Positions 20,751 through 22,199 of a stretch of 64,000 bases of DNA are shown in pieces. The position numbers and the translations under genes are program-made. Source of the DNA: Octopus sinensis. Taxonomy: Eukaryota. Where the stretch lies: the NCBI RefSeq assembly GCF_006345805.1, contig NC_043021.1, forward strand, positions 6,324,001 through 6,388,000, read 5' to 3'. The notes under the pieces were generated by a model, which was given only the letters and a program-made list of their open reading frames with translations, was not told the DNA's origin and searched no databases. Positions within the stretch are counted from its first letter, which is position 1. Each line of letters begins with the position of its first letter.

Positions 20751-20921
20751 TTTCAGCTTCGCCTTGTATTGCATATTATTTCTCCATACAGGGGTTTTTT
20801 TCAATGGCGGCCCATTTTCGCGGGGTTCCACTATTTCCCTTCTCTCTCTCTCTTTTACGTTGTCTGCCATCCCCCCTCTTCCTTTGCTAAGAGCATTTTT
20901 AAGCCAGCCCGTCATATTCCC
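19811..20921. repeat. Three head-to-tail copies of a ~370-bp unit with an internal (TAT)n
   Basis: Units start tcccgtgtcagg at 19811, 20185 and 20550 (374, 365 and ~368 bp) and are nearly identical. Confidence 0.95.
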
Positions 20922-21624
20922 GGTGCACCCGCCCTTGCCCACCCCACCACCAATACCGGATATCTCTATATTTTTGCTCCATCTATACGGATGTCGCTTC
21001 TCCCACCACCATTATAGGTGTCTACTCTTTGAACCCCCTCTTCAATACGCTATTTGACCATGCATTACCCCTCTCTGATATCCTACGTTCTACTTGCCTA
21101 GAACCTGTCATCATTTCTCTGAACCACCCTCCCCACTGGTGCTCCCCTATATTTCTCCCCCCCCCCACATAAAAAAGCACCATCCGAACGTGGCCGATGC
21201 CAGACCCCTCTGGCACCTGTGCAGGTGGCACGTAAAAAACACCCACTACACTCGCGGAGTGGTTGGCGTTAGGAAGGGCATCCAGCTGTAGAAACACTGC
21301 CAGACTAGACTGGAGCCTGGGGCAGTCCCGAGCTCCCCAGACCCCGGTCGAAACCGTCCAACCCGTGCTAGCGCGGAAAGACGTTAATTAAATGATGATG
21401 ATGATGATGATATATGAATAAATATATATATATATATGAATAAATAAATATATATATATGAATAAATAAATAAATGGAGTTGAATGAAGATGTTAATAAA
21501 ATTCCTTTACTTTCGACATATGTTTCGAAGACAACATAGTTTTATTCCAAAGGAATAAATGCTGTAAGATGCAGTCTTCTCAGTCATCGTAATTATTATA
21601 TTGTCTTGTTGGTGAGAGAGGCTC

Positions 21625-21717
21625 CCTTTCTTTCCTGATGAGAAGATTGCATCTTACACCGTTTATTCCTTTGGAATAAAACCATGTTGTCTTCGAAACA
21701 TATGTCGAAAGTAAAGG
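21625..21717 (+). ncRNA. Type-I hammerhead ribozyme with a canonical core, in a Penelope-like fold-back element (~21470-21760)
   Basis: cctttctttc-CTGATGA(21635-21641)-gaaga...tcttc-GAAAC(21695-21699)-atat-GTC(21704-21706)-gaaag-t-aaagg. All three stems pair and the cleavage triplet is GUC. Confidence 0.8.
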
Positions 21718-21908
21718 AATTTTAACATCTTTGTTCAACTCCATTTATTTATTTATTCATATATAACACACAAATTTCTGCACACGAACCCGGAGTTTTT
21801 ATCTTTGGACAGGTTGCTTCAACTGTGTTTCTGACTTGAATTTGCTACCCTGGTATCGGTTCATCGAATTTTCCATGTTGATGGAAAACATAGGATAATT
21901 TGTTCACC

Positions 21909-21955
<47 letters not shown>

Positions 21956-22199
21956 CAATGAGCACAAATCAGCAGTGGCAATATAATGGTAATGCTTTTT
22001 CCTACATGGATCCATAAATGTAATTCTTTCCCCAAATAAATTGTACTTCATTTTCAAGGCTTTGATGAAGCTGTTAGAAGTTACTCAGGCACTGAAATAT
22101 GATTCCACTGCATCTTGTAGCAGAAACAGCTGTAAGCTTATGAAGTTCATAGGATTACCGCTTATTCCATTGTCATCTCATTTTCCTGTATGTATGTAG

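What the first reader, a model, noticed from the sequence alone, without database searches (positions are those of the whole stretch)
21470..21760. Canonical GUC hammerhead preceded by its own truncated antisense copy
Seen: an intact core (CTGATGA 21635, GAAAC 21695, GTC 21704-21706), a 10-bp bulged stem I, a long stem II containing the hairpin tttattcc/ggaataaa, and stem III AC-ATAT-GT (palindrome). The upstream arm (~21470-21585) is a reverse-complement copy whose match ends at the core. Established: an inverted, truncated pLTR is a typical Penelope insertion structure. Inference: this is the best candidate for an active ribozyme here, and the antisense arm could sequester it as dsRNA.
Basis: partly seen in the sequence, partly recalled or inferred. 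Interest (0 to 1): 0.72.

Follow-up and report, generated by a model that had tools for sequence, protein, structure and literature searches.

The report
Hammerhead-bearing Penelope retrotransposon twin stub
This is an old, mirror-image, two-armed remnant of the tail end of a Penelope-like jumping gene sitting in a TA microsatellite; one arm keeps a complete hammerhead (self-cutting RNA) motif that is predicted but not shown to cut, so it is an ordinary example of a known pattern.

Summary
A complete type I hammerhead motif lies at 21625-21717, with predicted cleavage after C21706. Upstream is a reverse-complement copy (21453-21582) whose match ends inside CUGAUGA.

It is one copy of a large repeat family. 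Of 71 distinct copies, 56 keep an intact core, and the subfamily changes preserve the helices. I first read the family as non-coding; that was wrong. Longer copies run RT, then an Asn-rich linker, then GIY-YIG endonuclease, 3' UTR, hammerhead and a 148-bp tail. The motifs fit a Hydra-clade Penelope-like element that inserts in (TA)n.

The inverted arm is made anew at each insertion. Junctions differ from copy to copy, and 29 of 30 twin loci carry the tail on exactly one arm.

Cleavage is untested, and no Rfam hammerhead model matches. A transcript spanning both arms would fold into a -193.5 kcal/mol hairpin that pairs 80 of 83 hammerhead bases. Clustered A>G changes in contigs of guessed-RNA runs are only a weak hint of such dsRNA.

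The scan has met this pattern many times in this genome. Verdict: new member of a known kind, low interest.

The parts
21393..21452 (.). Left flank: end of a (GAT)n run, then (TA)n target microsatellite interrupted by two short stubs (TGAATAAAT..) that repeat the outer end of the inverted arm
   Evidence: sequence; direct-repeat family D1
21453..21582 (-). Inverted, more truncated copy of the element's 3' UTR. It is the antisense of 21639-21765, lacks the tail, and is truncated inside the hammerhead core, so on the minus strand it lacks CUGA and the 5' strand of stem I.
21582..21913 (+). Sense copy: the 5'-truncated 3' end of the Penelope-like element (last bases of the 3' UTR, hammerhead region 'H', 148-bp tail 'T'). 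Base 21582 fits either arm (1-nt overlap).
21625..21717 (+). Type I hammerhead motif: stem I 21625-34 / 21707-17, core CUGAUGA 21635-41, stem II 21642-94, GAAA 21695-98, stem III 21698-99 / 21704-05 with AUAU loop. Predicted cleavage is 3' of C21706.
   Evidence: no Rfam match
21765..21771 (+). ATATATA at the H/T boundary. The tail-less arm of twin insertions ends here and joins (TA)n. Inferred to be the proximal reverse-transcription start or a microhomology joining site.
   Evidence: inference from copy ends
21766..21913 (+). 148-bp 'tail' (T), present on only one arm, ending ...CACCCATCGAT at the microsatellite
21914..21951 (.). Right flank (TA)n target microsatellite

Best explanation
Window 21453-21913 is a heavily 5'-truncated, head-to-head double insertion of the 3' end of a Penelope-like retrotransposon (likely Hydra clade) in a (TA)n microsatellite, and its sense arm carries a complete type I hammerhead motif that is predicted, not shown, to self-cleave after C21706.

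Shown:
- The motif and the inverted repeat are present.
- The repeat belongs to a family of thousands of first-look candidates.
- Longer copies run RT, Asn-rich linker, GIY-YIG endonuclease, about 230 bp of 3' UTR, the hammerhead region (H) and a 148-bp tail (T).
- The junction between the arms differs from copy to copy.
- The tail sits on exactly one arm.
- Either arm may be the longer one.

Inferred:
- The element's endonuclease cut both strands of the TA repeat, and reverse transcription was primed from both 3' ends. One cDNA began at the distal start (end of T) and the other at the proximal start (the ATATATA at the H/T border).
- Both cDNAs stopped early and were joined in the middle.
- The hammerhead was inherited from the master element, where it is under constraint, and probably works as a dimer through the palindromic helix III ACAUAUGU and/or with help from the element's protein.
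- At this locus it is a fossil. If a plus-strand transcript crosses both arms, the motif would be locked in a long hairpin.
For: Motif and inverted repeat.

Family size: 2372 first-look candidates, of which 40 were scored.

Coding upstream part:
- L060 holds open frames 246-719 and 720-1880, immediately followed by H.
- L105 has a 670-aa frame with FDISNFY, LMGS..AQIADL, LYRDD and FLDITLNL.
- The C-terminal part scores 0.96 against a 'GIY-YIG catalytic domain' cluster.
- Homologue P0022 passes the Pfam GIY-YIG cut-off (23.6 vs 22.6 bits).
- In the alignment of 29 homologues plus the L105 frame, RWK, DKT, CxCX5C, CxxC..E..N..CxH and YRDD are conserved. These are the Hydra-clade features listed in PMC8557442 section 11.

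Twin anatomy:
- The arm junction differs from copy to copy among the 30 aligned loci.
- 29 of 30 have T on exactly one arm, 0 of 30 on both, 1 of 30 on neither. The T arm is the longer in 15 and the shorter in 14 of those 29.
- Direct and inverted upstream partial copies occur next to ORF-bearing copies.

Constraint on the hammerhead:
- Core and stem III columns have a minor-allele fraction of 0.028, against 0.081 elsewhere (permutation p 0.0067).
- All 8 sites with minor fraction above 0.2 lie outside the core.
- One compensatory pair: C-G 43, U-A 18.

Folding:
- The hammerhead fold is -19.9 kcal/mol against an MFE of -22.1.
- The dimer MFE is -51.6 with an intermolecular helix III.
- The whole inverted repeat folds at -193.5, with 80 of 83 hammerhead bases paired to the upstream arm.

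Literature:
- Inverted 5'-truncated copy, tail at one end, (TA)n targets (PMC8557442).
- A purified Penelope-like protein cleaves and extends both strands and starts reverse transcription at two internal sites that bound the tail (PMC11167929).
Against: - No Rfam hammerhead hit at E<=10 on this copy or at E<=1 on two other loci.
- Pfam finds nothing in the family's own open frames.
- A profile of the homologues finds no reverse transcriptase among solved structures. The RT call therefore rests on motifs read by eye and on Atlas neighbours.
- The tail is 148 bp, against 30-40 bp in the literature.
- In the published in-vitro work the two strands did not differ in start site, so the strict one-tail rule is not explained by it.
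- No target-site duplication can be read in (TA)n.
- Cleavage and transcription are not shown. All runs laid were contigs whose RNA nature is a guess.
Confidence: 0.85

Rival explanations
1. A non-autonomous, protein-free hammerhead 'retrozyme' (animal non-LTR retrozyme) that spreads through small circular RNAs and borrows Penelope enzymes.
For: This was my own first reading: copies X-H-T with no long frame in L033. Other notes of this scan file similar repeats of this genome as retrozymes. The hammerhead has the short palindromic helix III typical of such repeats (PMC7229834 passages).
Against: 'X' turned out to encode the GIY-YIG end of a long frame, and the homology runs on upstream into RT. 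Copies are dispersed, 5'-truncated and often inverted. They are not 170-400-bp head-to-tail arrays. No circular-RNA evidence was obtainable.
Confidence: 0.06
2. A fold-back DNA element or MITE whose terminal inverted repeats happen to contain a hammerhead-like sequence and which moves as a unit.
For: 313 bp align to their own reverse complement at 83% identity, and many genomic copies have two arms.
Against: The junction and arm lengths differ between copies. The arms are the 3' UTR of an RT-EN element. One arm carries an extra 148-bp tail, so the ends are not symmetric. No target-site duplication is seen.
Confidence: 0.03
3. The hairpin has been taken over by the host as a small-RNA or dsRNA-producing locus (miRNA/siRNA precursor, or ADAR substrate with a function).
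For: Predicted hairpin of -193.5 kcal/mol. Weak, far sub-threshold matches to miRNA precursor models (MIR6425, 29.7 bits against a gathering score of 142). Contigs bridging the locus-specific junction in guessed-RNA runs show clustered A>G: 5 of 5 differences in X1 record 5, and 2 listed of 4 in X4 record 26.
Against: The miRNA matches only reflect hairpin shape. The two arms have drifted apart, including CpG decay on both, as expected without selection. Run kinds are guesses, and the A>G carriers bear another organism label than the large, probably DNA, run that lacks them.
Confidence: 0.05
4. The hammerhead resemblance is a chance arrangement of short motifs in AT-rich repeat DNA.
For: Rfam models do not recognise it. 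CTGATGA alone occurs 11 times in the window.
Against: All three helices and all core blocks are in the right order with G10.1-C11.1. 56 of 71 family copies keep the core. 97.7% of pair cells are standard pairs, with one compensatory pair. The motif sits where Penelope-like elements are known to carry hammerheads.
Confidence: 0.01

Closest known systems
Hydra-clade C-terminal EN+ Penelope-like elements (Craig et al. 2021, PMC8557442; section 11 read whole, other passages by search)
   Same: Single frame with RT followed by a C-terminal GIY-YIG. DKT instead of DKG. RWK and CxCX5C in the homologues. No CCHH between GIY and YIG. CxxC..E..N..CxH. Insertion into (TA)n. A canonical-core hammerhead. 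Inverted 5'-truncated copies and a tail on one side.
   Different: In this family an Asn-rich low-complexity stretch sits where the homologues have the CxCX5C linker. Estimated unit is about 3.2 kb rather than under 3 kb (inferred). The tail is 148 bp rather than 30-40 bp. Hammerhead helix II is 53 nt. Clade assignment rests on motifs, not on a tree with reference sequences; the paper's supplementary alignments were not opened.
PAc, the Poseidon element of Anolis carolinensis, studied in vitro (Frangieh et al. 2024, PMC11167929; main text read whole)
   Same: The protein cleaves and extends both target strands. Reverse transcription starts at two internal sites, and the stretch between them is the genomic 'tail'. 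Targets are AT-rich. A hammerhead lies near the start sites.
   Different: It belongs to another clade. There the tail is short and lies in the ORF start. No strand difference in start site was reported, whereas here 29 of 30 twins carry the tail on exactly one arm.
Metazoan type I hammerheads with a short palindromic helix III, and the minimal hammerheads of Penelope-like elements (Cervera and de la Pena 2014, PMC4209133; passages)
   Same: Type I topology, a 2-bp helix III capped by a palindromic tetraloop, G10.1-C11.1, location in the element's flanking repeat, predicted action as a dimer.
   Different: Helix II is 53 nt with internal loops, against 4-8 bp. Helix I is 10 bp with bulges. There is no recognisable loop-loop contact. 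Rfam models do not match it.
Animal non-LTR retrozymes (Cervera and de la Pena 2020, PMC7229834, passages; Li, Clavereau and Pollet 2026 preprint, abstract only)
   Same: Hammerhead-bearing repeats related to Penelope pLTRs, with low GC.
   Different: This family encodes RT and endonuclease in its long copies. It is dispersed and truncated rather than arranged as short tandem units.

Membership tests
Hammerhead ribozyme, type I | Conserved core CUGANGA ... GAAA ... UH with helices I, II, III in type I order and a G10.1-C11.1 pair | tested here: met
   Sequence read at 21625-21717. The constrained fold is within 2.2 kcal/mol of the MFE.
Hammerhead ribozyme, type I | Match to a curated covariance model (Rfam hammerhead families) | tested here: not met
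   No hit at gathering score, none at E<=10 in 21400-21800, none at E<=1 in L037 and L044. The 53-nt helix II is the likely reason (inference).
Hammerhead ribozyme, type I | Helices supported by conservation or covariation among relatives | tested here: met
   97.7% of 2064 cells are paired, against 42-52% when slid. One compensatory pair (C-G 43, U-A 18) and three pairs with frequent wobble or single-side alternates (UG 37/UA 33; UA 44/UG 23; GU 54/GC 8/AU 5). Caveat: the copies are related, and the structure was read from one of them.
Hammerhead ribozyme, type I | Site-specific self-cleavage | not testable with these tools
   Needs in-vitro transcription. The runs available were contigs, which cannot show RNA ends.
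Penelope-like elements, EN+ | Reverse transcriptase joined to a GIY-YIG endonuclease in one frame | tested here: met
   RT motifs and a GIY-YIG-like end were read in L060 and L105. Atlas score is 0.96 for GIY-YIG. The nearest Atlas clusters for the RT part carry HTH_animal, and some carry RVT_1. Homologue P0022 passes Pfam GIY-YIG. Own frames give no Pfam hit and there is no PDB match, so support is moderate.
Penelope-like elements, EN+ | Insertion anatomy: 5' truncation, direct or inverted partial copies (pLTRs), tail at one end | tested here: met
Penelope-like elements, EN+ | Hammerhead motif in the flanking repeat | tested here: met
   H follows the stop codon of the frame by about 230 bp (L060: frame ends at 1880, H at 2110-2296).
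Hydra clade of Penelope-like elements | DKT in place of DKG; RWK motif; CCHH absent from the endonuclease; CxCX5C linker; (TA)n targets | tested here: inconclusive
   In this family's frames, DKT is present and there is no Cys pair between GIY and YIG, and targets are (TA)n. RWK and CxCX5C are seen in the homologues only; the N-terminus of this family was not examined, and its linker is Asn-rich. No tree with reference elements was made.
Animal non-LTR retrozymes | Non-coding short units in head-to-tail arrays giving circular RNA | tested here: not met
   The family has RT-EN frames. The window copy is single and inverted, not tandem. Circular RNA is not testable here.
MITE / fold-back DNA transposon | Fixed terminal inverted repeats and a target-site duplication, with the unit moving as a whole | tested here: not met
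   Junctions and arm lengths vary and the ends are asymmetric. No duplication is readable in (TA)n.

The most novel reading that the evidence does not exclude
The thousands of twin insertions of this family are a fossil record of how Penelope-like elements integrate in vivo. Both strands of the cut TA repeat are primed in one coupled, asymmetric event: one cDNA from the distal start site and one from the proximal, hence exactly one tail. Part of the templates were hammerhead-cleaved RNAs, because 5' ends and arm junctions pile up at helix III and the cleavage site. That would be the first in-vivo sign that the ribozyme acts on the template.
Probability: 0.2. Interest if true: 0.55.

Novelty: new member of a known kind. 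Interest (0 to 1): 0.25.

Why it matters
As a single locus it matters little. It is a dead, truncated copy of a known kind of retrotransposon, and the scan has already met many hammerhead-bearing Penelope-type insertions in this genome.

The family behind it is more useful. It is abundant and has a long, easily scored tail, and its twin insertions obey a strict one-tail rule with freely varying junctions. That gives a natural data set for testing the both-strand, two-start-site integration model so far seen only in vitro.

The locus also shows how retrotransposon integration itself makes long hairpin-forming DNA. If transcribed, such hairpins feed dsRNA pathways such as A-to-I editing, which is very active in cephalopods (recalled, not from a call).

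Tried and rejected
1. 'Non-coding, about 930-bp element X-H-T with a fixed 5' end' was my reading. It is wrong. The apparent common start at query base 19 only reflected the truncation of the copy I used as query. Homology runs on upstream, and X encodes the GIY-YIG end of a long frame.

2. The 3' extension after T in L034 as a lead to the autonomous partner: it is a separate 227-bp repeat.

3. The top 20 GIY-YIG loci of the genome hold no H, T or X, apart from one 27-nt match to X at E 0.009 in L082, taken as chance. They belong to other Penelope-like families.

4. Pfam on 12 long frames of the window: nothing relevant. No tRNA in 20900-22100. The host-gene context and transcription direction stay unknown.

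5. The pattern scan with stem II of 10-40 nt missed the motif, whose stem II is 53 nt, and its 6 matches do not exceed chance.

6. Reads: no RNA holder is listed. All 24 runs are Logan contigs, and the RNA kind is a guess for the runs so labelled. Contigs cannot show RNA ends, so the cleavage site could not be tested.

7. Simple snap-back of the tail-bearing cDNA as the origin of the second arm: not supported, because the tail-bearing arm is the shorter one in 14 of 29 twins.

8. The search for the perfect palindromic junction at the cleavage site found only 4 loci at up to 1 mismatch. No control positions were searched, so this count says little.

Full report
**Observation**

The plus strand at 21625-21717 reads as a complete type I hammerhead.
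- Stem I: CCUUUCUUUC (21625-34) pairs with GAAAG-U-AAAGG (21707-17), 10 bp with U21712 bulged.
- Core: CUGAUGA at 21635-41.
- Stem II: 53 nt, opening with G10.1-C11.1 in GAAGA/UCUUC and holding the hairpin UUUAUUCC-UUU-GGAAUAAA.
- GAAA at 21695-98.
- Helix III: A-U and C-G closing AUAU, which forms the palindrome ACAUAUGU.
- GUC at 21704-06.

The upstream inverted copy is real. Arms 21497-21582 / 21639-21724 are 86 nt and 95% complementary. Arms 21453-21496 / 21722-21765 are 44 nt and 95% complementary. The spacer is 56 nt. The match stops at 21639, inside the core, so the minus-strand copy lacks CUGA and the 5' strand of stem I. The window holds no second copy.

Against the motif, Rfam finds no hammerhead at gathering score, at E<=10 around the site, or at E<=1 in two other family loci.

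**More than chance**

The stretch is one copy of a large family: 2372 first-look candidates in the 2.72-Gb genome, of which 40 were scored.

From the loci fetched up to that point I collected 104 BLAST pieces. Of these, 73 cover the hammerhead, and 71 are distinct places after dropping three rows that duplicate places already present.
- 56 of 71 keep CUGAUGA, GAAA and UH intact; 15 do not.
- Core and helix III columns vary less than the rest: mean minor fraction 0.028 against 0.081, permutation p 0.0067.
- All eight sites with a minor fraction above 0.2 lie outside the core.

On alignment A2, 97.7% of 2064 pair cells are standard pairs, against 42-52% when the partners are slid. One pair of stem I changes on both sides (C-G 43, U-A 18, U-G 3, other 6). 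Three pairs show frequent single-side alternates: two switch between U-A and U-G, and one between G-U, G-C and A-U.

Two caveats apply. The copies are related, and the structure was read from one of them.

**What the repeat is**

I first took the family for a non-coding element of about 930 bp, in three parts.
- X: about 600 bp upstream.
- H: equal to 21581-21765, holding the hammerhead.
- T: a 148-bp tail, equal to 21766-21913.

That reading was wrong. Homology continues at least 636 bp upstream of X, and for about 1 kb between the longer copies compared.
- The region is coding. In L060, frames 246-719 and 720-1880 run straight into X and H.
- L105 has a 670-aa frame. By eye these frames hold RT motifs (FDISNFYSSI, LMGS..SAQIADL, LYRDDCLL, FLDITLNL).
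- After an Asn-rich stretch comes a GIY-YIG-type end (IYQC..FFYIGAS..R..NH.., CNIC..E, C-K-H).

Support from tools is moderate.
- The C-terminal part scores 0.96 against an Atlas cluster named GIY-YIG.
- The RT part has nearest clusters carrying HTH_animal, DUF8422 and in part RVT_1.
- 82 homologues were found, the best at 42-44% identity over 93-96% of the query and one at 47% over 57%. One is named, from the octopod Argonauta hians.
- One homologue passes the Pfam GIY-YIG cut-off, and 2 of the 30 members of alignment A1 match it.
- Pfam finds nothing in the family's own frames, and no solved structure matches.

In alignment A1 the homologues conserve RWK, DKT, YRDD, CxCX5C and CxxC..E..N..CxH, with no Cys pair between GIY and YIG. 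These are the features that Craig et al. list for the Hydra clade, which also inserts into (TA)n and carries canonical hammerheads (PMC8557442 section 11). I therefore call the family a Penelope-like element, likely of the Hydra clade.

The genome holds very many such genes. The RT piece has 10949 first-look candidates, of which 150 were scored, with open frames up to 923 aa. Pfam GIY-YIG has 5029 candidates.

**Anatomy of the insertions**

Among 30 loci found with the two-armed query, the junction between the arms differs from copy to copy. In some, the antisense arm runs through the whole hammerhead; in others it stops earlier; and the start of the sense arm varies as well.
- 29 of 30 carry T on exactly one arm, none on both, one on neither.
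- The T arm is the longer one in 15 of those 29 and the shorter in 14.
- If each arm chose its end independently, exactly one tail could occur in at most half of the twins.
- The tail-less arm ends at the ATATATA of the H/T border, fused to (TA)n.

Among 30 loci found with X, 19 have T after H and 11 do not. Three of those 11 have an inverted T-bearing stub adjoining, or within about 180 bp of, their 5' end. Next to ORF-bearing copies there are direct (L113) and inverted (L102, L106, L107) upstream partial copies.

The window copy fits this scheme.
- Inverted tail-less arm: 21453-21582.
- Sense arm with tail: 21582-21913.
- (TA)n lies on both sides.

The arms differ by a few substitutions, including CpG decay on both, and by a 3-nt indel, as expected of an old insertion.

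**How it most likely arose (inferred)**

The published picture fits. Penelope-like insertions are 5'-truncated, often have an inverted 5'-truncated copy at the 5' end, and have a tail present at one end only (PMC8557442). Purified PAc protein cleaves and extends both target strands and starts reverse transcription at two internal sites that bound the tail (PMC11167929).

I infer that both 3' ends of the cut TA repeat primed cDNA. One started from the distal site and one from the proximal site, and the two incomplete cDNAs were joined. A plain snap-back of the tail-bearing cDNA does not fit, because that arm is often the shorter one. Why exactly one arm gets the tail is not explained by the in-vitro work, which saw no strand difference in start site.

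**Would the ribozyme work here?**

Folding results:
- The hammerhead fold of 21622-21720 costs only 2.2 kcal/mol over the MFE (-19.9 against -22.1).
- Two copies fold to -51.6 kcal/mol with an intermolecular ACAUAUGU helix III, the dimer form described for animal type I hammerheads (PMC4209133).
- A transcript of 21453-21765 folds to a -193.5 kcal/mol hairpin in which 80 of 83 hammerhead bases pair with the upstream arm.

Published Penelope hammerheads cleave poorly in vitro. The PAc one needs protein and is dispensable for insertion in vitro. This copy also lacks the element's upstream sequence. I rate detectable in-vitro cleavage of the isolated RNA as a dimer at about even odds, and a role at this locus as unlikely.

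Reads could not test cleavage. Only assembled contigs of runs whose RNA nature is a guess were available.
- Two contigs bridge the locus-specific junction. X1 record 5 (21504-21652) has five differences, all A>G, at 21534, 21538, 21544, 21551 and 21557.
- X4 record 26 (21511-21655) has A>G at 21544 and 21557 among its four differences.
- The large, probably DNA, run X15 shows none at those two places, but it bears another organism label.

This is a weak hint of A-to-I editing of a plus-strand hairpin, no more.

**A side result**

I asked where truncated copies begin, using queries that lie downstream of the cleavage site.
- Among 41 distinct events, BLAST boundaries fall in an 11-nt window around the cleavage site in 7 cases. 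The binomial P is 5e-4 against a uniform spread over the last 238 nt. The window was chosen after seeing the data, and one of the two samples ended at the site.
- On inspection one of the seven (L155) starts a few bases further on.
- Three start at AUAUGUC in the helix III loop.
- Three are twins whose arms meet at, or within about 2 nt of, UC|GA (L122, L134, L142).

Because TCGA and ACATATGT are palindromes, run-off on hammerhead-cleaved RNA and microhomology joining cannot be told apart. A pattern search found only 4 perfect junctions of this kind at up to 1 mismatch, and no control positions were run.

**Comparison and verdict**

The locus works like, and by the tests above is, a Penelope-like insertion with a pLTR-type hammerhead. 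It differs from textbook cases in degree only: a 148-bp tail, a 53-nt helix II that escapes Rfam, and an Asn-rich linker.

It is not a retrozyme in the strict sense, not a MITE, and not a chance motif. Earlier notes of this scan describe many hammerhead-bearing Penelope-type insertions in (TA)n in this same genome, so the pattern is not new to the scan either.

Novelty: new member of a known kind. Interest: 0.25.

Noticed in passing
window 21166-21411 (also about 1300-1420): A separate SINE-like repeat ending in (GAT)n abuts the insertion. In guessed-RNA contig sets its summed word depth reaches 126,000-574,000 in bin 21227-21287. It holds hammerhead-like pieces (CTGATGA-AGCC-TTCT-GGCT at 1356; GGTCGAAACCGTCC at 21347). 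Penelope-family copies adjoin or continue from the same repeat at other loci: L008 and L029 are contiguous, and L176 has T right after the (ATG)n.
   Followed up: partly
window 21410-21475: The outer end of the inverted arm is preceded by two shorter stubs of its last 12-16 nt (TGAATAAAT, TGAATAAATAAAT), separated by TA runs. They may reflect repeated abortive starts of reverse transcription, or microsatellite slippage.
   Followed up: no
L122, L134, L142 (twin junctions); L117, L126, L135 (5' ends); window equivalents 21700-21707: 5' ends and arm junctions of truncated copies cluster at the helix III loop and the predicted cleavage site: 6 of 41 distinct events after inspection. Either hammerhead-cleaved templates or joining at the palindromes TCGA / ACATATGT could explain it.
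   Followed up: partly
window 21534-21557, and 21676-21684: Clustered A>G differences in contigs of guessed-RNA runs: X1 has 5 of 5, and X4 has 2 listed of 4, in junction-bridging contigs. Three adjacent A>G at 21676/78/79 appear in X3 and X4, and two of those three are nearly absent from the large run X15. Possible A-to-I editing of family hairpins.
   Followed up: partly
L034:5304-5530 (G000 C4): A 227-bp repeat lies next to the tail. Its 39 other scored genomic copies are 99-100% identical, and there are 971 first-look candidates, so it is a very young short element. Its kind was not determined.
   Followed up: no
L172/L173 (G000 C3, around 80.437-80.439 Mb): A twin unit (an inverted arm of about 580 bp plus a 160-bp tail stub) is repeated at least three times head to tail with a period of about 765 bp. 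A Penelope twin insertion has been amplified into a small satellite.
   Followed up: no
L060:720-1880, L105:769-2781: In this family an Asn-rich low-complexity stretch of about 100-150 aa sits where homologues have the CxCX5C linker between RT and endonuclease. The one homologue that a source names is called 'GATA zinc finger domain-containing protein 14-like', possibly because of such a stretch.
   Followed up: partly
window (position not looked up): The window contains 100 N.
   Followed up: no
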